This document shows, piece by piece, positions 2,959 to 41,269 of a stretch of DNA of 41,269 nt (positions within the stretch are counted from its first letter, which is position 1; each line of letters starts with the position of its first letter). The DNA is taken from NCBI GenBank assembly GCA_002256025.1, contig NKIB01014709.1, positions 1 to 41,269 of the forward strand, in the 5' to 3' direction. The position numbers were made by a program, and so were the translations under genes. Under the pieces are notes generated by a model that was not told where the DNA came from, searched no databases, and saw nothing but the letters and a program-made list of their open reading frames with translations. The stretch is from Asterionella formosa (lineage: Eukaryota).

Positions 2959-2970
2959 TGCTGCCTGGTA

Positions 2971-3713
2971 CCAGTCAAAAACTGCTTAAGACCACTATAA
3001 CGGGGTAATCTTACATTTTGTACTACAAACTTTTTCAATTTTAGCAATACGACAATATTTACTATGAACAAGTCATTTGTTTTACGCATCTACATATAGG
3101 ATGTCTTAACGCCCGATCGATGTTGTGTTCCAGTTGGTGAGAAAAACGACTTCGAAAATGTTGAGTGGACAGTGGCGCAAACAAAAACAATCGTGTTGTG
3201 GTACATACAAATTGGCGATGCACCATACCTTACCTGCAACAAAACAACTACTGCTTACTGATACAATGAGAGGTGGCGATGCATCAGTCCCAGTTAGCAT
3301 AGCAATACTGCCACCATCGGCCTCAGCTGAAGAGGATGATGAGGATGAAGTTGTGATTATGGAAGAGTGATATATGTGTTGTTTGCACAATAAATCGATG
3401 TCAGTTGACACAAGAAATTGGAGAAAGTATGGAAAACGAGGTAATATTTTCTAACCGTTTACCATTAAAAATATATATATACATGAAGAAAAATATATGA
3501 ATGGCTTAAGACCACTAAAATGCAAAATGAACGACTTAAAAAGTTTGATATTGCAAGATAAATCCTTCCAATTGTGAAAATGATTCATTTATCTAGTACT
3601 TGCATGCATTAGTTGACCTCTTTTCAAAGGGTTTTAAATGGGGTCGGCTGAACATTTTTCTAATTTTAGTCCAAAAATGGGGTAATATAGTGGTCTAAGC
3701 AGTTTTTGACTGG
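2971..3713. mobile_element. Non-autonomous pogo/Tc1-mariner-type element (MITE-like, 743 bp)
   Basis: TIRs CCAGTCAAAAACTGCTTAAGACCACTATA and TATAGTGGTCTAAGCAGTTTTTGACTGG. TA target duplication at 2969-2970 and 3714-3715. Internal copy of the TIR core near 3505. Confidence 0.85.
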
Positions 3714-3864
3714 TACCGGCACACTCGTGATGGGCTTGTCAAATACCGGTGTATAGTATCAACCTGGTTTCATATGTAGCCGTGCATAGAAATGGCTGGT
3801 GCATGTTACTCCGACTATAACCCTAACCCCATATCCATCTGTATCGATACACAGGATCGCTCAC

Positions 3865-4024
3865 CAGGTATGGTACCAGGTACCTGGTACCAATATCTTA
3901 GCTTCAACATGTAGTGGTACCCGGTAGTCTACCAGGTACCAGGTACCAGGAATACCAATATTTTTTAGCTGTAACATAGACTCAAGACCGTATATTGTAC
4001 CAGGTACGAGGTACCTCGTACCAT
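3865..4024. repeat. Cluster of GGTACC / CCAGGTA palindromic micro-repeats
   Basis: ggtaccaggtacctggtacc, taccaggtaccaggtaccagg and gtaccaggtacgaggtacctcgtacc lie within 160 bp. Confidence 0.7.
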
Positions 4025-4067
4025 GTTTACACACATGAACTCATTCCATAAGCGGCCTCGGATCGAA

Positions 4068-4312
4068 CCGTTCTCCTTGCTACCTATTGTACATAGAGCT
4101 ATTTAATTAATACAAAGGAACTTCTATATGATTGGTCGCTTATGGTTCGCTTCGCAAATAAATGTTTCATACCGTATATAGAGGAATGGTACCATTACCC
4201 TTTACCATGTTGCTGATTGACCCATTCTCCATGCTACATATTATACATAGATCTACTTAATTAATACAAGGGAACTTCTATGTGATTGGTCGCTTATGGT
4301 TCGCTTCGCAAA
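4068..4312 (+). promoter_or_regulatory. Duplicated ~90-bp upstream block (period 154 bp) 5' of the micro-exon gene; putative promoter
   Basis: 4068-4158 and 4222-4312 share TTAATTAATACAA.GGAACTTCTAT.TGATTGGTCGCTTATGGTTCGCTTCGCAAA, including ATTGG (inverted CCAAT). The second copy ends ~120 bp upstream of the ATG at 4434. Promoter function is inferred. Confidence 0.5.
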
Positions 4313-4433
4313 CTACTTAATGTTTAACAGTAGAAAATTTTCTCGCGAAAAACAATAAAAGGAAGAAACAAAAGTTCATAAAACTAAACATATAAACATA
4401 GAAAATCTATATACGCATTTCTCACTCACCAAC

Positions 4434-6790
4434 ATGAAAGCCATTCGTTCCCTTTTCTTGCTTGCTGTGGTCATCCAATCGACTTTGGCATACTCCACCA
4501 TGAACTCAGAGGTACGTTGAAAACATCTGCATTGAATTAACTGTGATAGTGAGTGAGAAGTGCAAGGAGAATCAAACTGGTCCTTTTTGTTTCTGTGAAA
4601 TAAAATTCTTATTTTCTTTTTGATTCTGTCTTGCTTCTCCTTCATCTTAACACTGGCAGGAAACCAGATTCCTGAAAGTCTCAAAGGTAAGTTTTACTTG
4701 CTACAGGTTGTAGAACTCAATCAACTACAACGCCACACAAACAAGAAAAATGGTAACTTACTTATATCATCAACTAATGTTTGCAAATTGATTACTGCAC
4801 TATAGGCTCCCAAGGTATGTGTTTTAGAATAAAAATACCTTGTTTTTGTGATTCGATTCTCGCAAGCTCCTCAAGAAAATGGTAGCTACATGCACTTCTG
4901 TGTTGTAAATTGAGTCTATTGTTGAGACTTATCATGTTGATTCTTTGCCAACAGGATTCAAAGGCAACAAAGGCCCCCAAGGCTACCAAGGTATGTAGCT
5001 ACTTGAAGTGTGGTTAAATCACCTTTCTTGTTGTGTGTGCAGCAATATTAATACAAAAACAATGGAAAATACATTGTGTGCTTCATTTGAAAGCTTGTAA
5101 GCTTGTGAAGTAACAATAAACTGGTAGTGGCATGTGTTTCTGTTATGTCAATTGATTCTGTTCTGACTAACCTTTTTCTGGTTCCAATGTATTTGCTACT
5201 TTCTCTTGACAGAAGCCTAAAGGCACTAGAGAACTCAACAGCAGTGTATGTATTTACTAAACCGTGTTAACATGTTCTGTGGAATAATTCAAACTTTTGA
5301 GTTTGCAAACAGGTACACTGCATGCTATTGTCTTACATCAACTAACATTTGTAATTTGATTCTTTGGCTACAGAGTGGTTCCATGGTATGTATTTGCAGT
5401 AGTAAAGCACCTTGCTTCACATGTTTGAAGCATTTAAGAAAGAACATGGAGTTTGTTGCTTGAAAAAACGGGAACTCGTAACTACATTCACTACAACTGC
5501 AATGTGTTTTGATTTTGTTGTGACTAACATTAATCATGTTGATTCATTCCCATTAGGCTACAAGGACTCTCAAGGCTCCCACGGTATGTACTTGAAGTGT
5601 TGAAGCACTTTCTTATTTGTTGTGTGTTCGCAGCATTATGAAAACAAATCATGGAGTGTGATACTTGCAAGAACATCAAGCAGACTGGTAGCTAGAAGTT
5701 TCTGTAATCAAGTTTATTGATCATGTGGTGACTTACATTAATCATGTTGATTCCTTCCCATCAGGCTACAAAGGCTCCCAAGGCTCCAAAGGTATGTACT
5801 TAAAGTGGTGAAGCACTTCTTACTTGTTGTGTGTTTGCAGCATTATAAAAACAAATCATCGAGTTTGATACTTGCAAGCACATCAAGCAGACTGGTAGCT
5901 AGGTCCTGTAGTAATCACGATGTTTATTGATTATGTGGTGACTAACATTAATCATGTTGATTCATTCACATCAGGTTACAAAGATTCCCAAGGCTCCAAC
6001 GAGGGTATGTACTTGAAGTGGTGAAGCATTTTCTTACTTGTTGTGTGTTTCTGGAATTATAAAAACAAACCAAGGAATGTGATACTTGCAAGCACATCAA
6101 GCAGAGGACTGGTAGCTAGGTCCTGTAATTATGTTTTTTGATTATGTGGTGGCTAACATTAATCACATTCATTCATTTTCATCAGGCTACAAAGGCTCCC
6201 AAGGTTCCAACGAGGGTATGTACTTGAAGTGGTGAAGCACTTTCCTACTTCTTGTTGTGTGTTTCTGGTATTATAAAAACAAACCAAGGAATGTGATACT
6301 TGCAAGCACATCAAGCAGACTGGTAGCTAGGTCCTGTAATTATGTTTTTTGATCATGTGGTGACTAACATTAATCATGTTGATTCATTCCCATCAGGCTA
6401 CAAAGGCTCCCAAGGCTCAACAGGTATGTACTTGAAGTGTTGAAGCACTTTCTTACTTGTTGTGTGTTTGCAGAATTGTAAAAGCAAATCGTGGAGAGTA
6501 TTGTTCTCAGGCTTGCCAAGCAAACTGTTGGCATGTGCTGTACTAGCTAGCTACTATGGTTTTTTATTCTTTTGTGACTAACATTAATCATCTTGATTTT
6601 TTAGCCTACCATGGTAGGTGCTTGTAGCGGCGGAGCACCATGATTGATTTGGTTCAGCATCATGAAAATAAATTATGGCGAACTGTCTTTGGTCCCAAGC
6701 TAATCAAAACTGACTACCGGTATGCAAGACTATGATTCCTACTTTGTGTGACTAACATCTCCTATTTCGCTTCTTCTTCATTAGCTCTAA
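4434..6790 (+). CDS. Micro-exon gene encoding a ~116-aa secreted silaffin-like (RXL/KXXK) Lys-Ala-Pro-Thr-rich protein
   Basis: Exons 4434-4511, 4660-4686, 4806-4814, 4955-4990, 5213-5245, 5374-5385, 5557-5583, 5765-5791, 5975-6004, 6186-6215, 6397-6423, 6605-6613, 6785-6790. All have GTA(T/A/C/G)GT donors and YAG acceptors; most introns have a CTAAC-like branch point. Spliced product: MKAIRSLFLLAVVIQSTLAYSTMNSE|ETRFLKVSK|APK|DSKATKAPKATK|KPKGTRELNSS|SGSM|ATRTLKAPT|ATKAPKAPK|VTKIPKAPTR|ATKAPKVPTR|ATKAPKAQQ|PTM|L*. Confidence 0.85.
5505..6604 (+). repeat. Tandem repeat of a ~210-bp intron+micro-exon unit (about 5 copies)
   Basis: The unit GTGACTAACATTAATCATGTTGATTCATTCCCATCAG-[27/30-nt exon]-GTATGTACTTGAAGTG... 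recurs with exon starts at 5557, 5765, 5975, 6186 and 6397 (spacing 208-211). Confidence 0.9.
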
Positions 6791-7204
6791 AGCATCAGAC
6801 ATTGCAGGAACTTGGGTTATGCAAATTAAAAAATCGCCCTCTTTCAAGTAAGCTCCATCACTTTCCAAAAAGTGCTTTGTAGCAATATCAATCGAACCAA
6901 ATGGTTGATGTTGTTTGGTTCTAAAAGTGGTAGTACTTTAGCCACATAAAGATCTATAGCACTTTCTGCACGCTGCCAAACTGTCGATTATTTAGTTTGT
7001 AAGAAGTAGAATAGCTGACAAGCTTGGGGATAAAAAGGTTGGTTGTCCCATGACAATTCTCGAAACATAATAATAGCAGTGGTCATAATCCATATTGATT
7101 ACAGTTTTCTTGATGGGTAAGAAAGAAAGCATCAAATCCAATTATCATGATACTTTCTTCTCTTCGCCGAGATTCATTGGCCTATATATATATAATGTAG
7201 TGAG

Positions 7205-7449
7205 TGCTAGGAAATATGGACGTACAAGATACAGACAGTGAGTGGGTCAAAGTACAAGGAAAGAAAAAGAAAGAAGCCACGTCAACAGTGAAGGTTACGT
7301 GGACAGATGAGTAGGTATATATACATAATAGTTAACATGAGTTCTGCTCATTCTTTACTAATTATCGGGTTTACATCAAGAAAGCCTCCCTCTGTCCATT
7401 GTTGCCTTACAGACACAATAGAATACAGTCCGAACATGTGGATTAAACA
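7205..7449 (+). repeat. 5' LTR of the Copia element
   Basis: TGCTAGGAAATATGG...GTGGATTAAACA; matches 20115-20237 plus 26280-26413. Confidence 0.92.
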
Positions 7450-7476
7450 TAATCAGTAAAGAAAAAGGCGAATAAA

Positions 7477-10400
7477 ATGGGAGGCGGCAATACAGCAGCC
7501 AATGATGGTGGCAGCGGTGATGCTACACCAAAAGACAAGAAGGAAAGTGTTGCTGGCAAGAAGCAGCCGATGATGGTGGTGGCAGTGATGCCACACCAAA
7601 AGACAAGAAGGAAAGTGTTGGTGGCAAGAAGCTACCATATTGATACAGAAACCAGAAGACTGCTGTTCCACAGCAGCCCAAGTTTGAAGGGAAATGCGAT
7701 GAGCTGAAAGGTCATGTCTATGATATCTCAGATGCAAGACAGGCAGACTTGTTTGTGATGACAACAAAGGAGGTGGCTGAGTTTGTGGGGCAGACCTACA
7801 AGTATGGCGGCGACATATGATTGGCAATAGAAAACATTCAGGTGCCCAACATTGCTGAGCCATATGACCCACCAGCAGGCGCATCCAGGACTCGAAAGAA
7901 TACATTTTTTGCATTACAGTGTCCAAAAATGCATAAACCGTCAGTCAGGGGAGTTCGTGATAATTTCAACGATTCGAAGTTTTTATTCGCGTAAAGAACA
8001 AGCAGTCTTTTGTTGAATGGCTGAAAGCATTTCTATAGTAAACTGTTAAATGACCTTATCAAGATTCCGTAGAAATATGGACCACGATAATTAGTGCTTA
8101 CATAAAACTCAATACAAAATTGACGTAGAGGTATTTCTTGCATCTTGAAATGTTGTACCCTCTCCGAGAATACTGTCGCTCAAGTTTTCTCCTCTATTTC
8201 TACAAAACATAGAAAACCTTATCTAGTCAAAGTTATCAAGCTAATCACCGCGGACTCAACACTGTCTCGTTTTGCGTCATATCTTCAAAACTGAGCAAAT
8301 GACGACCAGAAACAACTTCCAGCGCCGATTTCAACTTTTTGTTGTCAATACTAGTGCAAAAAAATTTGATTATTGAACGATAATCTCTTCTATGCTAGTC
8401 TATATACACGAGCGAAATAGGAATTGTTCATTGTCAATATTCGTGAAGATATTCAACTCCATAATTTCGTCATGGTCAAGATGGAGTTGCTGTCTCACTC
8501 ATCAACCCCATGATACCACAGGCAGCTTTACAAACACACATGCAAGTACTGGTAGTACATAACCAGTAGTATGTATGCCAAGCATATATAATAGTATATA
8601 ATGCTATATATACGGAATGCACAAAGTATAAACAAGGTCTGTTGCATGTATGATGTGTTCCATGTCGAAAACATAAGTACATCTGATACATTCTGCATCC
8701 GATTTCTTGACAAAATGTACAGTAGTGCAAATTTATTTTTATTTTTCGATTTTCAATATACTTACAAGTAAAAAGAATCATTGAACACTTAGTTAGGAAA
8801 ATTTATTATCATTGATAAAAATTATCATAATCCCGAGTTCCCCCGGCAAACTCATTATGCATTTTCGGACACATTTATGCAAAAAGTGTAATGGACCTCC
8901 AGGACTCAGGAGCGCATTTGGGAAAAGCAGGTAGATGAATATGTTAAGCGAACAACCTACTTAATCGAGAATATTAAGACCCTATATGATTCACTAGTCT
9001 GGGGCCAAGGCCTTGCAAAATTTTGATGAGATGTCGACCAATGGTGATGGTCTTGCATTGCTCAAAGCAATCAAAAACACTGCTTTCAACTTTCATAGTC
9101 AAAAGTACCTTCCGCATTCACTTTATGAATCGACTTGGCATTTCTACATGACAATACAAGGAAAGTATATGACAACCCAGGCTTCTCTTGAACAGTTCCA
9201 AAACATGATAGATGACATTGGGCATACAGGAGGAATGGTGGGTCATCAACCAGGAATCGAAAGAGCCATAATGACAGAGAGGAGCATTGATCCAACAAAC
9301 ACCACAACAGCCGTGTAACAAATGGAAATTGAGAAGGAGGCCCAAAACCGCTATTTGGCTGTTACCTTCATGCTTGGTTCAGATAGGGATAGGTTTGGTT
9401 GCCTGATCGAGAACTTGGAGAATGACTTGTATCTCCAAGGCCAAAATAATTACCCAACATTCATCACTGCAGCCTATAATCTGCTTACTAATTGGAAACA
9501 AGACCCCTGCAACCTCATATGTACAAGTGGACCGGTCAAAGATGGAGCTTCGTTCACCAATGTAGACGGTGAACATGGAGAACAAGATATTCCACTCGAA
9601 AACAGTGGACTCACTAAATCTGGACGAAATAAATTGGCACACATCACATGCCACAAATGTGGCAAACAGGGACATTTTGCTGACAAATGCGAAGAGGAGT
9701 GTCAAACTGGTTCCATGCTTTTGACGGCAGGTATAGAGAATGGAGAGTTCAATCATGAGGAGCACTTCCAATTCCTGCAGCACACCAAAGAAGTATCATT
9801 GAAGCTAGATGAGAGCGGAAAAATCCCAAAGAGCTCGATCTTGTTAGACAATCAGTCTACTGTTGATGTCTTCTATAATGCAAATCTACTCAGGAATATC
9901 AGAAAAGGTGAAAAACACATGGATATTCACTGCAATGCAGGTTTTACAAGCACTAACTTGGTTGGTGACTTGCCAGGATATGGGACAGTGTGGTACCATC
10001 CAAATGGGATTGCCAACATCTTGTTCTTGCTTGGCAAAAATGCAGAAACTTGGGTACCAAATTAAATATGATAGCAAGGATGGAAATGAGTTCATCATTT
10101 ACAGAGCAGAAGGAACCATGAGAGTGTTTAAAAGTGTTTAAAAAATCAGATCGTGGTCTATACTTAATGGACAGCAAGATGGCCAGCACTACTACAGAGG
10201 TCACACTGGTTAATACGGTAGATGATAACCATTCTAACTACACCAACCGTGACTACTCTCATGCAGTATGGGCTCGTCAATTACAAAAGATAATAAGAAG
10301 GCCAAGTACTTGTACATTTACTAAAATTGAGGAAAACAATTTACTACCAAAGTGCCCAGTGATGCAAAGGGACATCCCAATGGCAGAGGATATGGTCCTG

Positions 10401-18689: not shown

Positions 18690-20224
18690 ATGGGGATGTG
18701 CCAACGGCCGAAAGCAGAGAGCATATACAAACAAGGAAGAGGCAAGTTCACCAACTGTGGCTATCGAATCAGTACTGTTATCTTGTGTAATCGATGCAAT
18801 GGAAGGTCGTGATGTTGCCACAATTGACATACCCGGGGCATTCATGCAGGAGGATATGGAGGATGTTGTTAACATGAAGTTGGAAAGGAAAATGGCCAAA
18901 CTTCTTGTGTGAATAGATCCCAGATTATACCGCAAACATGTGCAGATGCAAGGGGGTGAGCAGGTCTTATATGTGGAAATAAAGAAATCATTGTACGGAA
19001 CTCTCAAGGCAGCGCTGTTATTTTGGAAGAAACATACAACAAAATTGAAACAATGGGGATTTGAGGTGAATCCATACGATTGGTGTGTAATGAACAAAAA
19101 AACTATTGATCGGGCCCAATGCACAATATTATGGCATGTGGATGATCTAAAGATATCTCATGTCAAGCCAAATGTAGTTACCAAGGTAATCAAACAGTTG
19201 GAGGCAGAATTTGGCATTGAGGCACCCCTTACAAAGACACGTGGAAAAGTTCATGAATACCTAGGCATGATTCTTGATTTTACTACAATAGGAAAAGTCA
19301 TGGTGTCAATAAAGGATTTTATTGAACGGATGTTAAACGAGCTGCCAACAGACATGGATGGGGAAGCTGTGACTGCAGCAGCAAATCATCTCTTCAAAGT
19401 GAACGAAACAGACCCAATCAAGTTGAAAGAAGAAAAATCCGCAATGTTTCATCATAACATGGCCAAACTGTTGTTTTTATGTAAGCGTGCCCGTCCGGAT
19501 ATTCAGACCGCGGTGGTTTTTCTATGTACACGTGTTAAGGCTCCCGACACAGATGATTACAAAAAATTGACTCGGGTAATGAGGTATTTACGAGGAACTG
19601 TGAATATGCCACTGACACTGTAGGCAGAGAGTATGTAAATAGTCAAGTGGTGGGTCGACGCTTCATTTGCTGTTCCGGAGCTGTGATGACCCTAGAAAAA
19701 GGAGGAATATATGGCACATCAACCAGGCAAAGAGTTAACACAAGAAGTTCCACAGAAGATGAGCTTGTAGGAGTCAACGATGCAATGCCACAGATATTGT
19801 GGACACGATATTTTTTCGAGGCTCAAGGATACGATGTTAAAGATTCAATTTTCTTTCAGGATAATCAGAGTGCAATATTGTTGGAAAAGAATCGCAAGGC
19901 ATCGAGCAGCAAAAGAACTCGCCACATTAACATCAGATATTTCTTTGTTACTGATCATATTGAGGCAAAGAGGTGCCAGTTCAATACTGCCCTACACAAG
20001 AGATGGTTGCAGATTTGTTTACAAAGCCACTACAGGGTGTCCTTTTCCAGAAATTTAGAAATGAGATTATGAATATTGATCCAGCAACTGTTAGCTTCCA
20101 GGATCACAGGAGTGTGTTAGGAAATATGGATGTACAAGATACAGACGGTGAGTGGGTCAAAATACAAGGAAAGAAAAAGAAAGAAGCCACGTCAACAGTG
20201 AAGGGTACGTGGACGGATAAGTAG
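18690..20224 (+). pseudogene. Copia reverse transcriptase-RNase H pseudogene
   Basis: GCANGRKQR, DIPGAFMQ, KSLYGTLKAALLFW, LWHVDDLKISH, RARPDIQTAV, SSTEDELV, QDNQSAI, KRTRHINIRYFF, ADLFTKPLQG, and DHRSVL running into the 3' LTR. Contains stops and frameshifts. Confidence 0.95.
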
Positions 20225-32550: not shown

Positions 32551-35005
32551 CTATTTTGACATTGATATGCTTGCTGTCCCGTCATTGCCTTGGTAACCTG
32601 GAGGAACGACTTCAATGTGGCTTGGCAAGCCCGTCTCCGAGAACCATACTGCCCGAAATGTGTCATAATCTGCTGTGTGCCTCATCATTTGCCCAATGAC
32701 ACAGCAAGAACACCAGATGGAAACCAACAAATCTTCGCAACCTTCCAAATTTTCTTCAGGTATTTCGTAAGCTTTGCGGATTGATAGTCGTGTCCGGATT
32801 ATCAAATTGACACAGAAAAAGAGAACAGGAGTACTAAAAAGCAAAAATATAACTGCGGCAAATACCTTGACTGGAATTTTTGGTGTTTGAGCCACTATAG
32901 TAATGAGTAATACGTTCAAGGCGATGAAACATAATGATAGCACCAATACAGTCTGAACTTTCATTCTCGATCGAATTGACTGTTTTCGAACACCAATGAC
33001 TGGTAGACGCATTCGAGCCATCACTTGTGTGAGCGCAACTACAAAACGAAAGGTTAGACGTGGATGAACTTGGAGGTGATGCAGCACGCAATGAGGATAA
33101 GGTCAACGTACTTGGAGCAAAAATGAAGCTTGTCCACAAAGCTGGGTGGTCAATGCCGTGGCGAAAACAATCAAAGAGTCCATCTCGCCAGTGATGATGA
33201 GGAATTCCTGTTTCTTGGTACTTTGTCGCTCTCCAGTCCGTCACTGTAGATTCAAATACTTCACCTTTACTGACACCTCCTTTTGGGACCGTAGCAGTAA
33301 AAGCCCTACCTTCGACTTCGGCTTCAAATTGATAGTCCTCTGGAAAGCTACCAGGTGATAACACTTTCATTGATGTGGGATTCTGTGACCATTCTGATCC
33401 TACAATTGACTTTTCTTTCATTCTCCCTAGTGCATATTCTTTTGAAAGCATATTTTCTTCCGATATTATTACCTGCATTTCCCCAAGTGCATTTTGTTTT
33501 GAAAGAATGTCTTCCCCCCTTATTGCCTGTATTGTTTTTTCGCTTTGCTTTGAAGGCTCAACAGCCATAATCTCGTCATTACTTCGCACACTACCGCTGT
33601 CGCCATCTTCCATGAGTTTGTAATCACACAAGATGGTAGGAGGAATTTCCCTTGCCTCGATAAAAATAGGCCTGACCGGCAGTTCGTCTCGTTGATTGAA
33701 ATCATGAGGTATAGGGCTCTTGGATCGAGATATTTTTTTACTAAAAGTCTCGTTGAAATGCTTGTTTCGAGATGGAGATGAACTCCTCCTTTCAGGGGCG
33801 CGGAGCAGGGGTGCGAGCGGTTTCTTTCCAATTCTCTTCCCTTGTCGTGTACTATCAGCACTCATTGTAAGTGAGCTGACGGACGAAGCAGCCGTAAGAT
33901 TTTCCAACTCCAGCTTTAGACTATCCAAAATGAACCTGTACCTCACTCGGTTCTCTGGGTCGGTGGATTGTGACAACAAAATGGTCGCTCTGTCGATCTC
34001 TTCCATTATAATTTGCCTTGTTTTGGACTCAGCTTGTAATGCGTGCAATATTTTCAATTTACGTTCATGTTGCTTGGGTTTTGGTGGTATCAACTCAAAA
34101 ATTTCTGAATTCTCCGTCCTTCTCGGACTTTTTGGTATTTGTACAATCAACTTCGTCATGGTTTCTTTGGCACTGTGTTTGTTGTCAGGACCCTTTTTCA
34201 GTATTGGAGTTGGTTTCAGATAGTCTGGGCTCTTCCTGGATGGACTTTTACTTCCTCGCCTGGAGCTTTTAGATCTACGGGATCGCCTTGACGGAGGAGT
34301 ATACTCACAAAATCTTCGATCCAAGCTGCTGTCTCGAGTGATAGGGCTGTCTCTAATGGAGATTATGTCACGATTTTTGGAGCGAACTTCTGGGTCCCTC
34401 TCAACAGAATTCTTCTCTAAATGAAAGTTTTGGTGAACAACTGGTTTATGTGTATTTTCTTGAATAGAACTTGGCTTCGATAGATCAGTTGGAATCCGTT
34501 CGAATTGACCACGTTGTGCAGTTGGATGTGGATACGTAATGTATCCATTGATGTGATGGTTTTCATCACCTTTATAGCCTTCCGAAATCTCTACCTTGGT
34601 TTTGAATGGAGACGAATGCAGACATCGTTGCTGAATGGGAATTTTTGAAATAAGCAACGAATCTCCAAATGCATTTCTTAGCCTTCGTAACAAACCATCT
34701 TGTGTCGACTCTCCTGGATTCGCAAAGGTTGCTAGCGATTTGATTTTCTTTTGATAAGCTTCCGAAAAAATGAGCCGCTCCTCTGCTGTCATAACCGTCT
34801 CCAAGACGCGCTCCCCCTGCTGTCTCGAATCATTCTGTTCTGATAGCAGTTTGTAGGCAAGTCTTGTAAAGGCCTCTTCGTCCTGTAGCAGGGGATTATT
34901 CGGTTGGTGTAATGCCATTGTTTGAAAATTTGTCATGTAGTGTTCAGTTCCATTTTGAGATTCATCACGGTACGGTGAATAGCTGAGGTAGCCGTAGTTG
35001 GCCAT
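32551..35005 (-). CDS. PLAC8-domain membrane protein with a long low-complexity N-terminus (~793 aa, 2 exons)
   Basis: Exon 1 35005-33112, 73-nt GT-AG intron 33111-33039 with CTAAC, exon 2 33038-32551. Motifs WRDGLFDCF, two hydrophobic helices, and IRKAYEIPE...GCEDLLVSIWCSCCVIGQMMRHTADY. Confidence 0.88.
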
Positions 35006-35571
35006 GGTCCGATGGCTTAGGTTTGGATTCCGGAATCGTGCCGTTGACGATGTTTTTCCTCCGACGCTTCTCCTAATATGCTTTGATCGTTTTTCTTCTT
35101 GTCGAACAAATTATATAGGCCATAATGCTGAATTTAATTTTTTATCTTTTGATGTGCTTAATATGTATTTATCTATCAGCACTGATAAAGTAAAAATACC
35201 GGTAATGCGTAATATAGTACGGGTATATAGGCAGATCATAAAAATACTATCCAAACTAATAGTATCATCATGGAATATACCATAATATTACTTGTTGAAT
35301 ATATGCATTGATCCTAGACCGTTACCACACACGAGGACAGAATTGTGGTCAATAAAATGTCATTGTAATATATACGTGGTGGAATATCAATCATTGCATG
35401 GATTGCATGTGATGGGCATCCTCACAATTTGGCGATTTTGTGGCGAGATGTCACGTGTTGGTAGCAAAACCAAGCTGATGTTGGTATATTCTGTACCCTC
35501 TGCTATTATACAACATCACCTACATTTGATATGATAGATATGATAAACACAGAAGGAAAACAAAAACCACA

Positions 35572-38500
35572 ATGAACATGTCGCGACAAAAATGGGGTAA
35601 CGATTTGCAACAGCCACTGCATCGCTGTGGCGCTTTATCACCCCTTTCGCATGAGAGCAATGCGTCATCAGGATACTGTCCACCTAACGAGACGATCAAT
35701 GCATTCTCGGGAGCAAGCTCGTTCTCAAAGAGAAGCGATTTGATGCACGACGACGACATTTTTATGAGCAAAATGAAGTCACTGATAAATCTGCATGAAT
35801 CCACGAATCTTAGAGTCGAAGACGCCATCGAAAGCTCCTTTCCTTCGCCAGGAGAACAAAAGCTTTTCCATGATGTGCTTCAGTTCCGAATGGCAAATCT
35901 CCCCATGTTCCCTGAGGCCGGAGAAACGGCAATGAACCAAATGGTCCGGGAGATAAACCAGAGGTTTGGGAGGGCTTTGCGAAATGTGTCAACAAGAAAA
36001 CAATCAAGTAGCTATACCCTGCCACCAATTGTAATTCATCCACTGTCAGCAGTCGATGGGAGATCACCATCAGGGAGTCATACCGGTTTTAGCTCACCTC
36101 CTCGAGACCAATCAGCATTGCCTCATTCGCCTCAGTCTACCACGACATATTACTCTCAAATGCACTCGTCGCAATCACAACTGGACAATGGGATGCAACG
36201 TGCGATGCCACTAATGAATCCGATAGCAATGTCTCCCATGACATATTATCAGGGCCACGTTAATACTCATGGATCCCAGGTATCGCCTACTAATCCTTCG
36301 GAAGCCCCTTTGCAAGCAGCCCAAAACAGTTCATCCTCGCCAGTACGGGTGGCAGCGAATCCATCGTCACCGACAGGGTTTCTGAATCAAGCAATGTCGC
36401 AACACCAGTTGGATCGCACTATGCAAAATCAGCAAGTTCCAATTCTGGGCCGTCTTGAAGAATCACATGATGATAGCCTGCATGTAGCACCGCATCAACA
36501 AGTGCAGTCGAAGGTTCGATATGGCGAGGCACGTGATAATCTGCAGGCAAAATCTCTGGAAGCACAGCCTCAGGTTCGTCAAGCAGAATCACAGACTAAT
36601 AGTGTGCCATCACATCAGCAACAGCAGATGAAATGGACAGCCCCCCAATTATTGAGCCAACCCAATATCCCTCGACAGCTAACGCAAAATGACATTAACC
36701 GGCAGTCCGCTGTACCAGGAAGACTTCCAAACGGTCAAGGAACGTCTAAGGTTGTGAAACAAAAGACACAAGGTATTATGGAAAGTCAATCACAATATCA
36801 ACCTTTTGTAGAAACACCCCAAATACATAGGATGATTCCAGGACAAAGGACGCCAAGAGAAAACTATCAATACCAACCTCCTCAGCTCACTGCAAAAGCA
36901 ATGCCAAAAATAGATATAGATTGGAACATACCAGTAATGGCAGAAGAAATGACAATCGAAGCCTTTGTTGACAACTCGCCCAAGAAACAAGTGAACATTC
37001 GAGAGAAGACGATACGAAGAGAGCGGGTGTCTTCTTCAACAAACAACCCATCATCTCCCTTGTCTGTTGCAAGTGATCCAACTGCTGTGATGTCAAATCG
37101 TGGTAGACTTACTAATTCTTTTGATTCAACTGAAAACATGAATGAAAATGACAGGAAAGTAGAAAAGAAGTCGAAACAAAAAACCAGAACAAGGAATTCC
37201 AATCCGAATGAGGTAGCTGCAACAGCTTTTTCCGCGGCATGTGCTGAATCCCCTAATATGTCATCAACTTCACCTCTCATTTTTGATTCAATACAAGTCA
37301 AAGCCATTGGGGGAAACTACAAACTCGACATCTCAAGGAACAAGAGTGTCCTTCTTTTCAATGAAGCCGAAACACTGCAGAAACATGCAATTCTGCGAAA
37401 AACACTCATGGACGAAGTTGATCGAGTTAATCAGAGGCTGGCAACTGCTACTATGGAAGGGGAAAAGAATGCATACCTAGCATATCTTGATGAGCTACAG
37501 CTAGAACTAGAAAAATGGAATAAAGCAGCACATTTTGGTTCTGATAACATGAATGTGGTGGCTTGTAGTAACGAGCAACATAAAGACCTGAGGGCATCGC
37601 CAGTCGACAAGGTTCAAGACTCTACTGGTACTTCATTTGAGACAGACAAGTTTACTATTGAAACCATGGAACTATGTGACCTCTATAAAGGTGATGAAAG
37701 AAATACTGATGACAGTACTAAGACAAGGGTTCATTCCAAAAAGGCAAATGTACAAGAAGCCAAACATGACGATGGGATTCCAAGTGACATTAGGAGGCAA
37801 TGGAGAATTGTTGACATTGAGGCACCAAATACTCTTCCAGGAGGCTTCAAGTTTGAAGCAAGGCTTGATGATGAAGTCTTCATTGCGACAGTACCTAGGG
37901 GTGGAGTAAAGAAGGGAGAAATATTTGCAACAAGAATGGGAGATATCTATGGAAGCAATGATGATGCAGCAGATCGAACTCGTGTGTACAAGGACATGGA
38001 TGCACCACCCACAAGGTGGAGAGATGACCTATTTGATTGCTTCCGACATGGCTTGCACCATCCAATGCTATGCAACACAATATTTTGCCCTATGATTGCA
38101 CTACATCAGATATTGTCACGAGTCCAAATGGATGGTACTGGATACCGTATAGTCACAATCAAATCAAGAACCCGTGTCTTCTTTGTGGTCTGGCTGGTCT
38201 TTCTTTTGATTCTGATTCATGTCATTTACGTGGCGTTTTTCATTGTGGGTTCACCAGACGAAGAAAGTATACTCATAGCTACCATTCCTTTGATCGGCAT
38301 GGACTGTTTTTTGCTCCTCTATGGTGTCTACATGGTAGCAAAGACAAGGAGACAGGTTCGGAGTGAATATGATATTCCAGAATTACGTTGCAAAGGATAC
38401 GAGGACTGCTGCATGGCAGTGTTTTGTACTTGTTGTACCATTGCTCAAATGGGACGGCATACAGCAGACTATGAAACCTACCGAGCTTACTGCTGCTCGG

Positions 38501-38589
38501 ATACAGGGCTTGCAAATCATATCGAAATTAAGCTTCCTGTGGAATCTCTCCTGGACCGGAGTGACATTGAACGTGTTTCATCAACATAA
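35572..38589 (+). CDS. PLAC8-domain membrane protein with a long Gln/Ser/Pro-rich N-terminus (1005 aa)
   Basis: Intact ORF with WRDDLFDCF...FCPMIALHQ, two TM helices and VRSEYDIPE...GYEDCCMAVFCTCCTIAQMGRHTADY. Confidence 0.9.
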   Translation: MNMSRQKWGNDLQQPLHRCGALSPLSHESNASSGYCPPNETINAFSGASSFSKRSDLMHDDDIFMSKMKSLINLHESTNLRVEDAIESSFPSPGEQKLFHDVLQFRMANLPMFPEAGETAMNQMVREINQRFGRALRNVSTRKQSSSYTLPPIVIHPLSAVDGRSPSGSHTGFSSPPRDQSALPHSPQSTTTYYSQMHSSQSQLDNGMQRAMPLMNPIAMSPMTYYQGHVNTHGSQVSPTNPSEAPLQAAQNSSSSPVRVAANPSSPTGFLNQAMSQHQLDRTMQNQQVPILGRLEESHDDSLHVAPHQQVQSKVRYGEARDNLQAKSLEAQPQVRQAESQTNSVPSHQQQQMKWTAPQLLSQPNIPRQLTQNDINRQSAVPGRLPNGQGTSKVVKQKTQGIMESQSQYQPFVETPQIHRMIPGQRTPRENYQYQPPQLTAKAMPKIDIDWNIPVMAEEMTIEAFVDNSPKKQVNIREKTIRRERVSSSTNNPSSPLSVASDPTAVMSNRGRLTNSFDSTENMNENDRKVEKKSKQKTRTRNSNPNEVAATAFSAACAESPNMSSTSPLIFDSIQVKAIGGNYKLDISRNKSVLLFNEAETLQKHAILRKTLMDEVDRVNQRLATATMEGEKNAYLAYLDELQLELEKWNKAAHFGSDNMNVVACSNEQHKDLRASPVDKVQDSTGTSFETDKFTIETMELCDLYKGDERNTDDSTKTRVHSKKANVQEAKHDDGIPSDIRRQWRIVDIEAPNTLPGGFKFEARLDDEVFIATVPRGGVKKGEIFATRMGDIYGSNDDAADRTRVYKDMDAPPTRWRDDLFDCFRHGLHHPMLCNTIFCPMIALHQILSRVQMDGTGYRIVTIKSRTRVFFVVWLVFLLILIHVIYVAFFIVGSPDEESILIATIPLIGMDCFLLLYGVYMVAKTRRQVRSEYDIPELRCKGYEDCCMAVFCTCCTIAQMGRHTADYETYRAYCCSDTGLANHIEIKLPVESLLDRSDIERVSST

Positions 38590-38639: not shown

Positions 38640-39330
38640 AGACATAATACAGAGGTATTATTAAGAATCACATTGTCAATGGAGGATTCTTTTCTTTGCA
38701 TTTCATTAGCATACTGGTAGTTATCAATGCAGGACTTGGGATGAATAACTGGGAATGCATGGTATAGGAGTACCGGATCCACATATTGCAGCAAAAACGA
38801 TATTTTTAGCTTCATTTTCACGTCTCCCTTAGATAGTCTGGTGATCAAAATATTTAGCTGATGTATCATGAGTGAAGATGACTGATTTGATGCTTGCTTT
38901 CTGGAAATGAGAAGTGTGAGAATATTCAGAATGAAAAATATGGAACTGTTTGAGCACAGTAGGTTGCTTACAAACAAAAGAATTCTATTCAAAGTGAGGC
39001 TGGTGGGCTTAGAGGTGCACTAATCACTGGCATGGTTCGCTATATTGACAACTCCAAATCACATGGAGAATCTGGTTGCGAAGTCTTTTGCTAGGAATGT
39101 TGAGTTGGGGATTTACAGGTACACTTGTGGACTCAAATTTTCCCTTATGATGGATAGAAAAGGATCCAGGAGTTTCTGAAACTAATTGGAACAGCTCCTA
39201 CTTCACACCATTACTGGGTAACAAGAAGAGATCAATTCATGGCACAGAGTTATAATTATTAACAGAATTATTGGCAACTAACATGGCTGAAGGAGCATAT
39301 ATAGTCTACAATGAACCAATCTTTCATAAA
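38640..39330 (+). pseudogene. Possible heavily decayed non-LTR retrotransposon fragment (region C-terminal to RT)
   Basis: Broken GLG/GGL-type segments and a later W-I...FL pattern recall LINE ORF2 post-RT sequence. CpG-poor, no intact frame. Confidence 0.3.
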
Positions 39331-39544
39331 CCACGATGGTTTGTTCATACTCCATATCAGGTACCCATACCATGCCAGTTATTTATATATATACCACTCA
39401 AAATTGCTTAGTTAGTTCCTGTTAAATTGTCTAGTTGAAATATCACAGATCTTACTTTTAAGATCTCTAAAGCTGAAAACGTATTTTCACTTTACACTTT
39501 GTAATATTGTGAGCTTTCTGTTAATAGTCTATCTAGTCTTTTTC

Positions 39545-39743
39545 TTGCTGAAGGCAATACACGCCCGAGGTGGTCTCTTGCCTGCGAGTATACATGTGTT
39601 CGAGGCTGGGTGGCGCGAGTAGGTTGACCGTACGAGAGGCGCCCCCGGCGCTGCGAGAAGGTCACCCTACGAGTGCCATCCCAGTCGAGTACACATGTAT
39701 ACGAGAAGGCAAGTAGCCACCGAGAAGGGTATTGTTGAGGCAA
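39545..39743 (+). other. ~200-nt imperfect hairpin with periodic tandem G.A mismatches; candidate structured ncRNA or ssDNA element
   Basis: The arms pair around a CCC loop (39644-39646). Ten CGAG tetramers (39566, 39585, 39601, 39616, 39633 / 39654, 39670, 39686, 39702, 39721) face each other pairwise. Several G.T/U pairs occur on the + strand. Confidence 0.8.
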
Positions 39744-41269
39744 TTCCCGCTCTAGCTATCGTCGCGTCATTCGCTTACCTACTGCCCACAAATTTAGCAT
39801 AAATGTCAATTTTAGCCTACTATTGCCCATCATATAAAATATAATTCGTATATTTCCTATATTCACCTCGAAAATTGCCAAAGGTCCGATATTGCCCATC
39901 ATTAAAATATACATATGTTCGCATTTTGGCAAGACAACAGACGCCAATTGCCCCTCGGTTTTCCAGCCCTGGGATTGCCGAAATCGGCAAGGGGTCTACT
40001 TAAGGAAACCATTTTATATACTATACAGTTTTTAATAATTTATATCTAGAATTCACCTCGTTTTTGTTCGTCTCCTGAAAAGTGGACTCCGGCAATTCAC
40101 CTTTCACCATGCCAATCGTCGTCCATCATGACCGGTTTGGAGCGAAATCAGTTCCGCGATGACGCCAGTAGCGATTCTTTGCCTAAAGGATGCGGTTGAT
40201 TGTTGGATTGCTTGTCTTCTCGAGGCATTCATGTAGTCGCATCGTCCATTTTTCGTCGGACGAACGATGATATCGATACATCTGATGTTGGTGGCAAGTT
40301 TTTGCTCCGGTCATGTATGTAATGATGCTTGACTGATATTCTACCGGTTACCGGCAGTCATCTAGTCTACATACGTACGTGGTACTAAAAACAACCATGC
40401 ATGGTTTAAGCTATGCTTTAACGCTTACTTTGAACACGTAATAATATTCTCTCTGTAGACTCGGTATTATTTTTACGAGACCTGAAATGTTGAATTATAT
40501 CGTTCACATATTCATAGATTTTACGTACCGTATGCCCGATTTCGTCCTCACAAATATAGTTCTCACTCTATCTTGCCTGCCTTTGCTCTATTCGGGCTTG
40601 CAATAGGCAACGTTCGTCTTTCTTTGATCCCATCGTCTGCTGCTTGTTATGCTAGTTGAAGCGGATCGGTGAGTACAACAGTGAAATACTGAATGTGGAT
40701 TGTAGATTGTATTTATCGACTTTCCGATTTGATTGCTTCCGTGGTTTGTTTTGATCGCTTCCATCGTTGTTTGTCATTACGCACTGTCGTTTTGTTTCGA
40801 TTGTACATATCTACATAAGAACCAATGCATTTATAAATGACTACTCATTGAAGATGTGGTATTGTGCCGTTGTTGATTTGTATAGTCATTGACAATGATG
40901 TCAATATTGCCGCCAAGCAATGCTTTTCTTGTACTAACGCGCTTTGCTACATTTCTACTGCGAGTTCGTATCAGAAGCTACATGAATAATCAGCTAGAGA
41001 GAGTCAATAGTGCTGGAGCAGCGCGGCGATCATGCTTGCTCAGAATGGAATGATCGGGGTTGCCTGTTTGGTGGGCGGAACGAGAGGAATGACTGTGGCG
41101 GAAATACTGCTACTGGCTGGTGTCAGGCTACTACAGCGATGCGCATGGTTGCAGCAACCAGACTATTCAGGTATACATTGGGTTGAGCTCTTTTTCTTCT
41201 TCTTTCGGTCTTCGATTGTATGGCGATGGAAAGTCAATGTTGCCTGGTGTGTAAGTACTACAATGATTC

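What the first reader, a model, noticed from the sequence alone, without database searches (positions are those of the whole stretch)
39545..39743. ~200-nt hairpin with five evenly spaced CGAG/CGAG tandem G.A mismatches
Seen: the arms are complementary except that CGAG occurs in the same orientation on both arms and in register (39566/39721, 39585/39702, 39601/39686, 39616/39670, 39633/39654), giving C-G, G.A, A.G, G-C at 15-19 nt spacing. A sixth TGAA/TGAG pair lies near the base. Intervening stems all differ in sequence (e.g. TATACATGTGT/ACACATGTATA, GCTGGG-TGGCG/TGCCATCCCAGT), so this is neither a tandem repeat nor a simple inverted duplication. G.T/U wobbles make the fold specific to the + strand, and the island is GC- and CpG-rich in AT-rich DNA. 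Established: 5'-YGAR-3' tandem sheared G.A pairs are stable motifs in RNA and DNA and serve as protein-recognition sites. Inference: a selected structure, such as a rod-like ncRNA with repeated binding sites, a hairpin that avoids long perfect dsRNA, or an ssDNA origin/terminus of a mobile element or virus. I do not recognise it as a known family.
Basis: partly seen in the sequence, partly recalled or inferred. Interest (0 to 1): 0.88.

Follow-up and report, generated by a model that had tools for sequence, protein, structure and literature searches.

The report
Mismatch-studded hairpin capping a transposon end
The 190-base hairpin is real and forms the very first part of a roughly 2.1-kb, high-copy, non-coding jumping gene built like a Helitron2-type rolling-circle transposon, but its end hairpin is about ten times longer than usual and carries regularly spaced G-A mismatch blocks.

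Summary
Bases 39549-39739 fold into one long hairpin (RNA -114 kcal/mol, z -9.5). Ten CGAG words form five in-register CGAG/CGAG tandem G.A blocks, plus a sixth TGAA/TGAG block at the base.

It is not a free-standing RNA gene. It is the left terminus of a repeat that runs rightwards out of the window.
- Left end: 95 contig ends in four public runs, and three metagenome contigs, break at 39545-39548 into unlike flanks. All four sequenced junctions read TT(G/A)C before the element. Copies of the flanking repeat without the insertion exist.
- Right end: it lies about 371 nt beyond the window, at ...GGGAATTGC. It carries no hairpin: 20 of 25 contig-encoded ORFs run from it into unrelated sequence.
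- Inverted repeat: the last 24 nt are the inverse of 39740-39763, directly inside the hairpin.
- Joined ends: one contig joins right end to left end.

This architecture (terminal inverted repeat, subterminal partner, then a stem-loop, with site-specific insertion and joined ends) matches Helitron2/Helentron elements. The differences are a 191-nt stem-loop, a 24-nt repeat and a TTGC target. No transposase was found, so membership is inferred. I read the hairpin as a plus-strand ssDNA end-recognition and end-joining structure. An RNA role is neither shown nor excluded.

The parts
39545..39548 (+). TTGC: flanking target tetranucleotide directly 5' of the element. The same four letters end the element at its far (right) end, so the exact cut point is ambiguous by up to 4 nt.
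   Evidence: Left junctions read CTTGC (window), ATTGC (L001), ATTAC (L002) and ATTGC (L003) before TGAAGG. Contigs of the flanking repeat without the insertion run through ...TTGC and then into other sequence (loose ends at 39536 and 39548 in X7, X15, X18). The right end reads ...GGGAATTGC in L001 and '...SGNC' in 22 of the 25 ORFs that run past it.
39549..39739 (+). Terminal hairpin H (about 90-bp stem, CCC loop at 39644-39646), the first 191 nt of the element. It carries five CGAG/CGAG blocks (39566/39721, 39585/39702, 39601/39686, 39616/39670, 39633/39654) and one TGAA/TGAG block (39549/39736).
   Evidence: Folds. Pair table. Statistics. 186-188 of 191 nt are identical among the three copies.
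39740..39771 (+). Subterminal inverted repeat T. The core is 39740-39763, with weaker pairing to 39771. It is the inverse complement of the last 24-32 nt of the element (T').
   Evidence: Local alignment of L001's upstream part with 39740-39771: 24 nt with 2 mismatches, 32 nt with 5. 22 of the 25 ORFs that pass the right end read W (TGG) where L001 reads C (TGT). By my inference from those codons, this would reduce the mismatches to one G.T. The joined form folds as one continuous hairpin of about 240 nt (ssDNA -79.9 kcal/mol, z -9.3).
39549..41269 (+). The part of the mobile element that lies in the window (1,721 nt). It is non-coding and is cut off by the window end about 371 nt before its right terminus, for an inferred full length of about 2,092 nt.
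   Evidence: Summed contig depth in run X2 rises from 243-593 left of 39395 to 42,000-289,000 from 39528 to 40300. L001 and L003 match 39545-40284 and 39545-40247 at 94% and 90.5%. L001 links 41208-41269 through 371 nt to the right terminus. ORFs P0019, P0020 and P0021 confirm that link. No Pfam family reaches E 0.01 in 14 ORFs of the element.
39772..40100 (+). TTGCC/GGCAA-rich subterminal region. It holds two TATTGCCCATCAT copies 69 nt apart and a TTGCCGAAATCGGCAA mini-palindrome. These may be transposase-binding or pseudo-target sites.
   Evidence: Direct repeat D1. TTGCC occurs 11 times in the element (6.4 per kb) against 1.07 per kb in the rest of the window; ATTGCC lies at 39822, 39874, 39891, 39947, 39974 and 40906.
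39418..39548 (.). Left flank. It is itself part of another repeat ('R2') into which the element is inserted. R2 copies without the insertion serve as paralogous empty sites.
   Evidence: Depth in X2 is 18,000-66,000 at 39396-39527, against 243-593 further left. X7 contig 26 and X18 contig 9 cover 39418/39420 to 39536/39548 and then continue with sequence unlike the hairpin.

Best explanation
The hairpin is the terminal stem-loop of a non-autonomous, high-copy transposon of about 2.1 kb in a eukaryotic (probably algal) nuclear genome.

Layout of the element: [hairpin H, 191 nt] - [24-nt inverted repeat T] - about 1.85 kb of non-coding body - [T', the inverse of T, at the very right end]. It inserts directly 3' of TT(G/A)C, and its own right end is also TTGC. 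This is the Helitron2/Helentron (HLE2) layout. With the plus strand as reference it is the 'HLE2-reverse' form, with the stem-loop outside the left repeat.

Inferred mechanism: the element moves through a single-stranded plus-strand intermediate made by a HUH (Rep-helicase) transposase supplied in trans.
1. H snaps back as soon as the strand is displaced.
2. When the right end is displaced, T' pairs with T and stacks on H.
3. This places the right cleavage site (TTGC^) directly beside the 5' end, so the ends are joined precisely into a circle or tandem joint.

Inferred role of the CGAG blocks and the G.T wobbles: on the plus strand the CGAG blocks can form stable sheared G.A pairs, so that strand keeps a continuous rod. 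The minus strand gets C.T/T.C and C.A mismatches, and the duplex is not a perfect palindrome. They would therefore mark the active strand and give the enzyme regularly spaced landmarks, about 1.5 helical turns apart.

Shown: the hairpin, both element ends, the target word, the inverted repeat and a joined-end contig. Inferred: the enzyme class, the single-stranded intermediate and the role of the G.A blocks.
For: Left end: loose contig ends at 39544-39548 with heterogeneous upstream sequence (consensus agreement 0.36-0.68): 53 in X2, 30 in X15, 10 in X18 and 2 in X7. Four sequenced junctions have unlike flanks but a shared TT(G/A)C.

Insertion-free copies of the flanking repeat exist in 3 runs.

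Right end: of 29 contig ORFs that read through the right part, 25 run past '...SGNC' (= ...GGGAATTGC).
- 20 continue into sequence unlike the hairpin (two of them resemble each other).
- 3 continue into the inverse hairpin.
- 1 continues into the forward hairpin (this is L001's own ORF).
- 1 is unclear.

T/T' complementarity.

Joined ends: L001 has right end + hairpin + body in one contig. One contig each in X2 and X15 has a T'-like stretch joined to T without the hairpin (table 5c).

The joint folds as one 240-nt ssDNA hairpin. The right end alone does not fold (z -1.4).

Strand asymmetry: -114 against -97 kcal/mol; 7 G.U pairs; 10 CGAG against 0 CTCG. The majority letters in other copies (T at 39637, G at 39719) add two more G.T pairs.

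The terminus is better conserved than the body: H+T 217 of 223 nt between the window and L003, against 104 of 117 at 40131-40247.

No coding capacity.

Literature:
- Helitron2 has ATIRs of 8-15 bp, the 5' one 0-2 bp from the end and the 3' one directly upstream of the terminal hairpin; it inserts at a fixed T-rich word without TSD; the authors propose that ATIR pairing defines the end point (PMC3627910, passages).
- HLE2 and HLE2-reverse layouts (PMC11417382, sections 4 and 24).
- Joined ends in Fusarium Helitron2-like elements (PMC5148889, passages).
- CGAG blocks form G:C plus sheared G:A hairpins in DNA by NMR (PMC10085684, abstract only).
Against: - No Rep-helicase was seen. None lies in the window: 8 + 24 ORFs scanned by Pfam gave only PLAC8, a weak FAD-oxidoreductase match, thioredoxin-like and weak copia-type hits. 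No autonomous copy could be fetched.
- The hairpin is 191 nt. Described HLE2 families have 5-10 bp palindromes or a terminal segment of about 20-60 bp (PMC4067079, PMC3627910).
- The inverted repeat is 24 nt against 8-18 nt.
- The target is TTGC^(C/T), not T^T or TTTT^T. T^T fits only if the cut is placed 3 nt to the left, and 23 of 53 X2 contig ends stop matching one base short of that T.
- The identical TTGC on both sides could equally be a 4-bp duplication or a recombination core.
- The right junction of the window's own copy is outside the window.
- The right-end census rests on protein translations, not DNA.
- The DNA energy model gives only a 4 kcal/mol strand difference.
- No single-stranded or circular molecule was observed. 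L001 could be a genomic tandem.
Confidence: 0.5

Rival explanations
1. It is the same mobile element but with a different enzyme. One option is a circular intermediate integrated by a tyrosine recombinase (Crypton- or DIRS-like) at a TTGC core. The other is a Y1-HUH 'peel-and-paste' system like IS200/IS605. In either case the hairpin is a folded single-strand recombination site, analogous to integron attC or the IS608 ends. (These comparisons are recalled from the literature, not tested here.)
For: TTGC lies on both sides of the element, and the joint ...TTGC|TGAAGG occurs in L001. That fits recombination through a 4-nt core. It also fits insertion 3' of a fixed tetranucleotide (IS608 uses TTAC, and L002's flank is TTAC). 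The ends are asymmetric without terminal TIRs. GCAA, complementary to the target, lies at both feet of the hairpin (39554-39557 and 39740-39743). PMC3627910 (passage) notes that terminal hairpins (IS200/605) or short direct repeats (Crypton) are what matter for such elements.
Against: No recombinase or TnpA was seen. To my knowledge IS200/IS605 transposases are prokaryotic, and those elements carry hairpins at both ends; here the right end does not fold. Cryptons are not described with terminal hairpins or ATIRs. The terminal-TIR / subterminal-TIR / stem-loop order is specifically the Helitron2 layout (PMC3627910, PMC11417382).
Confidence: 0.2
2. The hairpin works mainly as RNA. It could be a structured cis-element or hairpin RNA in the element's transcript, whose G.A blocks break up perfect dsRNA to escape Dicer-type processing or bind a protein. 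Its terminal position would then be secondary.
For: The RNA fold is very stable and plus-strand-specific. Tandem G.A in a CGAG context is a stable RNA motif (established knowledge). Six metatranscriptome runs hold part of the stretch. The two that were laid carry the hairpin at summed depths of 2,450-7,700 (X15) and 115-2,500 (X18).
Against: The RNA runs are contigs only, with no strand, ends or level. In X15 the excess of element over flank is of the same order as in the DNA run X2, so carried-over DNA or read-through would suffice. Rfam has no match. The hairpin starts exactly at the integration boundary, so a transcript containing it must start in flanking DNA. Old copies lose CGAG through CpG decay without any sign of compensation (table 5c).
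Confidence: 0.1
3. It is a hairpin-ended linear replicon or integrated virus (parvovirus-like inverted terminal repeats, hairpin telomeres), or a cut-and-paste foldback or MITE element with the hairpin at both ends.
For: Three ORFs show the right end followed by the hairpin in inverse orientation (P0001, P0002, P0013). L001's T'-H-T arrangement resembles a single terminal repeat flanked on both sides. Deletions roughly centred on the hairpin apex, as expected of a palindrome, occur in X2 contigs (table 5).
Against: 20 of the 25 right ends run directly from T' into unrelated flank without any hairpin. The three inverse cases are explained by insertion into the TTGC^C site at the H/T border of a resident copy, or by inversion between T and T'. 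There are no TIRs at the extreme termini and no viral genes. Two viral-contig scans, one phage search and one plasmid search found nothing.
Confidence: 0.05
4. It is an LTR or another retroelement, with the hairpin lying in U3 or the 5' end.
For: The element starts with TG. A head-to-tail contig (L001) could be an internal-region/3'-LTR border. Copia-type remnants exist elsewhere in the window.
Against: The flanking word is fixed rather than a variable duplication. The right end is unique sequence with no repeat of the left end. No direct repeat of the terminus occurs in 39401-41269. There is no purine tract before the junction in L001, no poly(A), and no 5' truncation pattern.
Confidence: 0.03

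Closest known systems
Helitron2 / Helentron group (HLE2), including non-autonomous HINE/DINE-1 and the 'HLE2-reverse' FoHeli3-5 / proto-Helentron forms
   Same: One inverted repeat sits at the very terminus. Its partner is subterminal and is followed directly by a stem-loop that ends the element. The ends are asymmetric, the insertion word is fixed, the derivatives are high-copy and non-coding, and joined or tandem ends occur. The terminal region is better conserved than the body (PMC3627910, PMC4067079, PMC5148889, PMC11417382).
   Different: The stem-loop is 191 nt with a stem of about 90 bp, against palindromes of 5-10 bp or a terminal segment of 20-60 bp. The repeat is 24 nt against 8-18 nt. 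The target is TTGC^Y instead of T^T or TTTT^T/C. There are six regularly spaced tandem G.A blocks. No second small hairpin at the other end was seen. No Rep-helicase partner has been identified.
IS200/IS605 family ends (IS608, ISDra2)
   Same: A strand-specific imperfect hairpin lies at an element end. Insertion is directly 3' of a fixed tetranucleotide (TTAC for IS608) with no terminal inverted repeats. The right and left ends join. A short internal word is complementary to the cleavage word (GCAA against TTGC). These family features are recalled; a passage of PMC3627910 confirms that hairpins matter for IS200/605.
   Different: Those elements are prokaryotic, have hairpins of about 20-30 nt at both ends, and encode TnpA. 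Here the host is a eukaryote, there is one giant hairpin, and no protein is encoded.
CGAG-block DNA hairpins (AUTS2 promoter repeat)
   Same: CGAG opposite CGAG gives G:C plus sheared G:A pairs in thermally stable DNA hairpins (PMC10085684, abstract).
   Different: There the blocks are contiguous in a simple repeat of a human promoter. Here single blocks are set 15-19 bp apart between unique Watson-Crick stems at a transposon terminus.
Folded single-strand recombination sites (integron attC; parvovirus terminal hairpins with a mismatched bubble)
   Same: Imperfect palindromes whose unpaired or mismatched bases tell the enzyme which strand or orientation it holds (recalled knowledge, not tested here).
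   Different: The enzymes, hosts and sizes differ. A hairpin at both ends (the parvovirus layout) was tested here and not met.

Membership tests
Helitron2/Helentron (HLE2) | Rep (HUH, Y2) plus Pif1-like helicase transposase in autonomous members | not testable with these tools
   The element is non-coding. No such domain occurs in 32 window ORFs.
Helitron2/Helentron (HLE2) | Short asymmetric terminal inverted repeats: one at the terminus, the other subterminal | tested here: met
   T' forms the last 24 nt of the element and T lies at 39740-39763, 191 nt inside the other end. It is longer than the published 8-18 nt.
Helitron2/Helentron (HLE2) | Stem-loop between the subterminal repeat and the element end | tested here: met
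   H at 39549-39739 lies directly between the terminus and T. Its size is about ten times the published range.
Helitron2/Helentron (HLE2) | Insertion between T and T (or after TTTT) without target duplication | tested here: inconclusive
   The target is TT(G/A)C^Y. The shared TTGC lets the cut be drawn as T^TGC, but it could also be a 4-bp duplication. No DNA-level right junction was obtained.
Helitron2/Helentron (HLE2) | Joined ends or tandem copies from a circular or rolling-circle intermediate | tested here: met
   L001 has right end + left end in one contig. Hairpin-less T'-T joints occur in one contig each of X2 and X15. Whether these are circles or genomic tandems is not known.
IS200/IS605 | Imperfect subterminal hairpins at both ends and a Y1 TnpA | tested here: not met
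   The right-terminal 148 nt do not fold better than shuffles (z -1.4). No TnpA was seen.
Hairpin-ended replicons / foldback elements (hairpin in both terminal repeats) | The same palindrome at both ends | tested here: not met
   20 of 25 right ends pass from T' straight into unrelated sequence.
LTR retrotransposon | Long terminal direct repeats and a variable 4-6 bp duplication | tested here: not met
   There is no direct repeat of the terminus and the flanking word is fixed.
Any Rfam RNA family | Covariance-model score at or above the gathering threshold | tested here: not met
   0 matches in the whole window. In 39300-40100 at E up to 10 there is only snoZ40, 15.5 bits against a gathering score of 50, outside the hairpin.

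The most novel reading that the evidence does not exclude
The CGAG-block rod is a new kind of transposon end. It would be a long single-stranded DNA scaffold whose sheared G.A blocks, set every 1.5 helical turns, are the recognition marks for an oligomeric HUH (or other) transposase and define the active strand. The GCAA words at its two feet would select the TTGC target and the TTGC right-end cut by base pairing, a eukaryotic counterpart of the guide/cleavage-site logic of IS608. This would make target choice nucleic-acid-guided in a eukaryotic rolling-circle element, possibly one of a family distinct from described Helitron groups.
Probability: 0.15. Interest if true: 0.8.

Novelty: new variant of a known kind. 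Interest (0 to 1): 0.55.

Why it matters
Very little is known about how Helitron2/Helentron ends are recognised. The published models rest on tiny palindromes and short inverted repeats. This family exaggerates those features. It has a 90-bp stem built only for one strand. Its mismatches are all of the one type that keeps a helix stacked. Its inverted repeat would place the two cut sites side by side. That makes the single-strand, end-juxtaposition model directly testable with oligonucleotides and a cognate transposase.

It also offers a natural example of spaced CGAG blocks, so far studied as a human promoter repeat. The family appears recently active in aquatic protists: there are insertion-free paralogous sites, and terminal regions are 97-98% identical between copies.

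Practically, such elements break assemblies (the window ends inside one). A reader of the bare sequence could also mistake the hairpin for a non-coding RNA gene.

Tried and rejected
- Rfam at gathering score on the whole window, and at E up to 10 on 39300-40100: nothing relevant.
- tRNA/tmRNA scan: 0 genes.
- Own-genome search: no genome is held.
- Earlier-findings look-ups by place and by sequence: empty.
- Exact-word scans of viral contigs (two words) and genome contigs (one word): 0 hits.
- The single metagenome scan gave only three short contigs, too few for covariation statistics.
- blastn against the plasmid and phage collections: no match.
- Pfam on 14 ORFs of the element at E up to 1: only chance-level hits.
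- Protein search with the minus-strand ORF across the hairpin: only 2 hits. These were useful for architecture, not for covariation.
- Protein Atlas look-up of a neighbouring FAD-oxidoreductase ORF to place the host: mixed bacterial and eukaryotic clusters, not decisive.
- Expression: all four laid runs are contigs, so neither strand, ends nor level of any RNA can be read. Cover in RNA libraries is not counted as evidence of transcription.
- Uneven depth along the element and parts without cover in X18 and X7 were not interpreted.
- An extended sequence motif around CGAG was looked for by eye. The neighbours vary (CGAGTA x3, CGAGAA x3, CGAGG x2, CGAGAG, CGAGTG). A duplex-DNA protein-site reading was therefore judged less likely than the structural one.
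- I first read L001 and the inverse-hairpin ORFs as signs of a hairpin at both ends. The right-end census rejected that.
- Literature searches found no description of a transposon terminus with spaced CGAG or tandem G.A blocks, nor of Helitron ends in diatoms with long stem-loops. Subscription-journal papers and supplements (for example the terminal-sequence tables of PMC4067079 and PMC11417382) were not seen and could hold longer stem-loops.

Full report
**1. The observation.** Ten CGAG words lie at 39566, 39585, 39601, 39616, 39633 and 39654, 39670, 39686, 39702, 39721. In the minimum-free-energy fold every left-arm CGAG faces a right-arm CGAG. C and G close the block as C-G pairs, and the inner G and A face A and G. 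A sixth block, TGAA/TGAG, sits at the base.

As RNA the plus strand folds at -114.2 kcal/mol (z -9.5) and the minus strand at -97.2 (z -6.7). With DNA parameters the values are -57.3 and -53.1; that model has, as far as I know, no special term for tandem G.A. From the rest of the window 0.31 CGAG are expected in 195 nt, against 10 seen and 0 CTCG. None of 200,000 shuffles reached 10.

**2. Setting.** The window looks like eukaryotic nuclear DNA:
- no tRNA genes in 41 kb;
- CpG observed/expected 0.68;
- sparse ORFs, including two PLAC8-domain ORFs and weak copia-type remnants (RVT_2 2.9e-7, zinc knuckle 1.2e-3, both just under Pfam's cut-offs).

No genome is held for the window. The best-holding public run is labelled an algae metagenome. 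The host lineage was not resolved.

**3. The hairpin is the left end of a repeat.** Twenty of 24 listed public runs, from 15 studies, hold part of 39300-40000. I laid four of them, all as contigs.
- In the DNA run X2, summed contig depth is 243-593 at 39000-39395 and 42,000-289,000 from 39528 to 40300, with 2,213 contigs laid.
- Contigs lose their match to the window at 39544-39548, and the upstream parts disagree with each other (agreement 0.36-0.68): 53 in X2, 30 in X15, 10 in X18 and 2 in X7.
- The one metagenome scan gave three contigs. L001 and L003 match 39545-40284 and 39545-40247 at 94% and 90.5%, and L002 matches 39545-39612.
- The four left junctions have unrelated flanks that all end in TT(G/A)C before TGAAGG.

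The 130 nt left of the junction (39418-39548) are themselves a repeat, with X2 depth of 18,000-66,000. Copies of it in X7, X15 and X18 run through ...TTGC into other sequence without the element. These are paralogous empty sites that fix the boundary at 39548/39549, within the 4-nt ambiguity described in section 4.

**4. The right end.** The window ends inside the element. L001 carries window 41208-41269 (97%), then 371 further nt ending ...GGGAATTGC, followed at once by TGAAGG, the hairpin and the body. That gives a unit of 1,721 + 371 = 2,092 nt.

To learn what normally follows that end, I searched the protein collection with an ORF that reads through it. The 29 ORFs came from separate metagenome contigs.
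- 3 stop before the end.
- 1 stops at the end.
- 25 run past '...SGNC': 20 continue into sequence unlike the hairpin and unlike each other (except P0015 and P0017, which resemble each other); 3 continue into the hairpin in inverse orientation (P0001, P0002, P0013); 1 continues into the forward hairpin (P0024, L001's own ORF); 1 is unclear (P0014).

P0019, P0020 and P0021 confirm that the window's last 375 nt continue into this right part. So the right end is ...TTGC with no hairpin, and the element is asymmetric. The first codon after the end can begin with a pyrimidine in all 25, as in the empty site (TTGC^C). Because TTGC stands both before the left end and at the right end, the cut can be drawn anywhere within those four letters.

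**5. The inverted repeat and the joint.** The last 24 nt of the element are the inverse complement of 39740-39763, the stretch that directly follows the hairpin. There are 2 mismatches in L001, and weaker pairing extends to 32 nt. In 22 of the 25 ORFs the codon at one mismatch is W (TGG) where L001 has TGT. By my inference this turns that mismatch into a G.T pair on the plus strand.

As single-stranded DNA the L001 joint folds into one continuous hairpin of about 240 nt (-79.9 kcal/mol, z -9.3). The right end alone does not fold (z -1.4). One contig each in X2 and X15 carries a T'-like stretch joined to T with the hairpin missing (table 5c).

The three inverse-hairpin cases fit insertion of one copy into the TTGC^C word at the H/T border of another copy lying in the opposite direction, or inversion between T and T'. 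I could not tell which.

**6. What it resembles.** The order is: inverted repeat at one terminus, partner subterminal at the other, then a stem-loop that ends the element. Together with a fixed insertion word, many non-coding copies and joined ends, this is the published definition of Helitron2/Helentron elements.
- Bao and Jurka (PMC3627910, passages): ATIRs of 8-15 bp, the 3' one directly upstream of the terminal hairpin; insertion after TTTT without duplication; the suggestion that ATIR pairing sets the end point.
- Thomas et al. (PMC4067079, passages): subTIRs of 12-15 bp, palindromes of 5-10 bp, and the T^T target.
- Chellapan et al. (PMC5148889, passages): ATIRs and joined ends in Fusarium.
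- HELIANO (PMC11417382, sections 4 and 24): the HLE2 layout, and 'HLE2-reverse' with the stem-loop outside the left repeat.

The present family differs in scale and detail: a 191-nt stem-loop, a 24-nt repeat, a TTGC^Y target and the G.A blocks. No transposase was seen, so membership is inferred from architecture only.

**7. How it most likely works (inference).** Three features make the fold good on the plus strand and poorer on the minus strand:
- the 7 G.U/G.T pairs, plus two more in the majority sequence of other copies (39637 T and 39719 G; partners);
- only one C.A mismatch;
- the ten same-sense CGAG words.

NMR work shows that CGAG opposite CGAG forms G:C plus sheared G:A pairs in DNA hairpins (PMC10085684, abstract). 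I therefore read H as a plus-strand single-stranded DNA structure. It folds on displacement. T' then pairs with T and stacks on it, and the right-end TTGC cut site comes to lie beside the 5' end, giving the precise joint seen in L001.

The blocks would keep the rod continuous on one strand and spoil it on the other. They would make the duplex an imperfect palindrome and offer landmarks every 15-19 bp, about 1.5 turns. The palindrome is fragile all the same: X2 contigs show deletions roughly centred on the apex, for example 39590-39695 and 39594-39695 (table 5). GCAA, complementary to the target TTGC, lies at both feet of the hairpin. Whether it guides target choice is speculation.

**8. Conservation.** Among the window, L001 and L003 the hairpin is 186-188 of 191 identical and T is 31-32 of 32. 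In contrast 40131-40247 is 101-104 of 117. This is as expected if only copies with intact termini keep propagating.

Six hairpin sites vary.
- Three keep the pair through G.T or G-C changes (39670, 39685, 39719).
- One gains a G.T in the majority form (39637).
- Two break a pair (39577, 39609).
- There is no double compensatory change.

Decayed copies show CGAG changed to CAAG or TGAG, and other CpG losses (tables 3 and 5c). That fits neutral, methylation-type decay of dead copies. The data are too few for a covariation test.

**9. RNA.** Six RNA runs hold part of the stretch. In X15 the element-to-flank excess is similar to that in the DNA run X2, and contigs give no strand or ends. An RNA role is open but unsupported. 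Rfam has no match.

**10. Verdict.** The hairpin is real, non-random and selected. It is the terminal stem-loop of a high-copy non-autonomous transposon with Helitron2-like architecture, so it is a new variant of a known kind. The element boundaries and asymmetry are well supported (about 0.85 in my judgement). The enzyme class and the single-strand mechanism are inferred (about 0.5). The role of the G.A blocks is a hypothesis.

Noticed in passing
window 39418-39548: The element's left flank is itself a high-copy repeat (X2 depth 18,000-66,000). Copies without the insertion continue after TTGC with a short palindrome (GATTAC..GTAATC). One ORF hit (P0002) seems to show a diverged hairpin copy next to a similar flank, so the same site may be hit repeatedly, or the pair may have been copied together.
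   Followed up: partly
window 39772-40100: TTGCC/GGCAA words are six times enriched in the element. They include two TATTGCCCATCAT copies 69 nt apart and a TTGCCGAAATCGGCAA mini-palindrome. Since the insertion word is TTGC^C, these may be binding sites or self-targets. The window copy lacks a 12-nt stretch behind 39911 that L001, L003 and contigs in X7 and X18 carry.
   Followed up: partly
window 39583-39706 (tables 5 and 5c): Contigs in run X2 carry deletions roughly centred on the hairpin apex. Some copies have nearly every CpG of the hairpin changed to TpG or CpA. This suggests palindrome-driven deletion and methylation-type decay of old copies.
   Followed up: no
window 32551-33102 (-) and 35530-38589 (+): Two ORFs with PLAC8 domains lie 2.4 kb apart on opposite strands. 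The larger is a 1,005-aa intronless ORF with a long low-complexity N-terminal part.
   Followed up: no
window 9319-10065 (+) and 18913-19623 (+): Weak zinc-knuckle (E 1.2e-3) and copia-type reverse-transcriptase (RVT_2, E 2.9e-7) matches in broken frames, both just under Pfam's cut-offs. These are probably decayed LTR-retrotransposon remnants.
   Followed up: no
L002 and L003 left flanks; table 5c: GGTACC-rich simple repeats (CCAGGTACCTGGTACC-like) lie next to two other copies of the element, and inside a rearranged X2 contig.
   Followed up: no
L001 (protein P0024): The source's gene call for this contig reads the TGA at the element start as W. The ORF therefore runs from the right end through the joint into the hairpin. 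This is an annotation artefact, not evidence of a protein.
   Followed up: no
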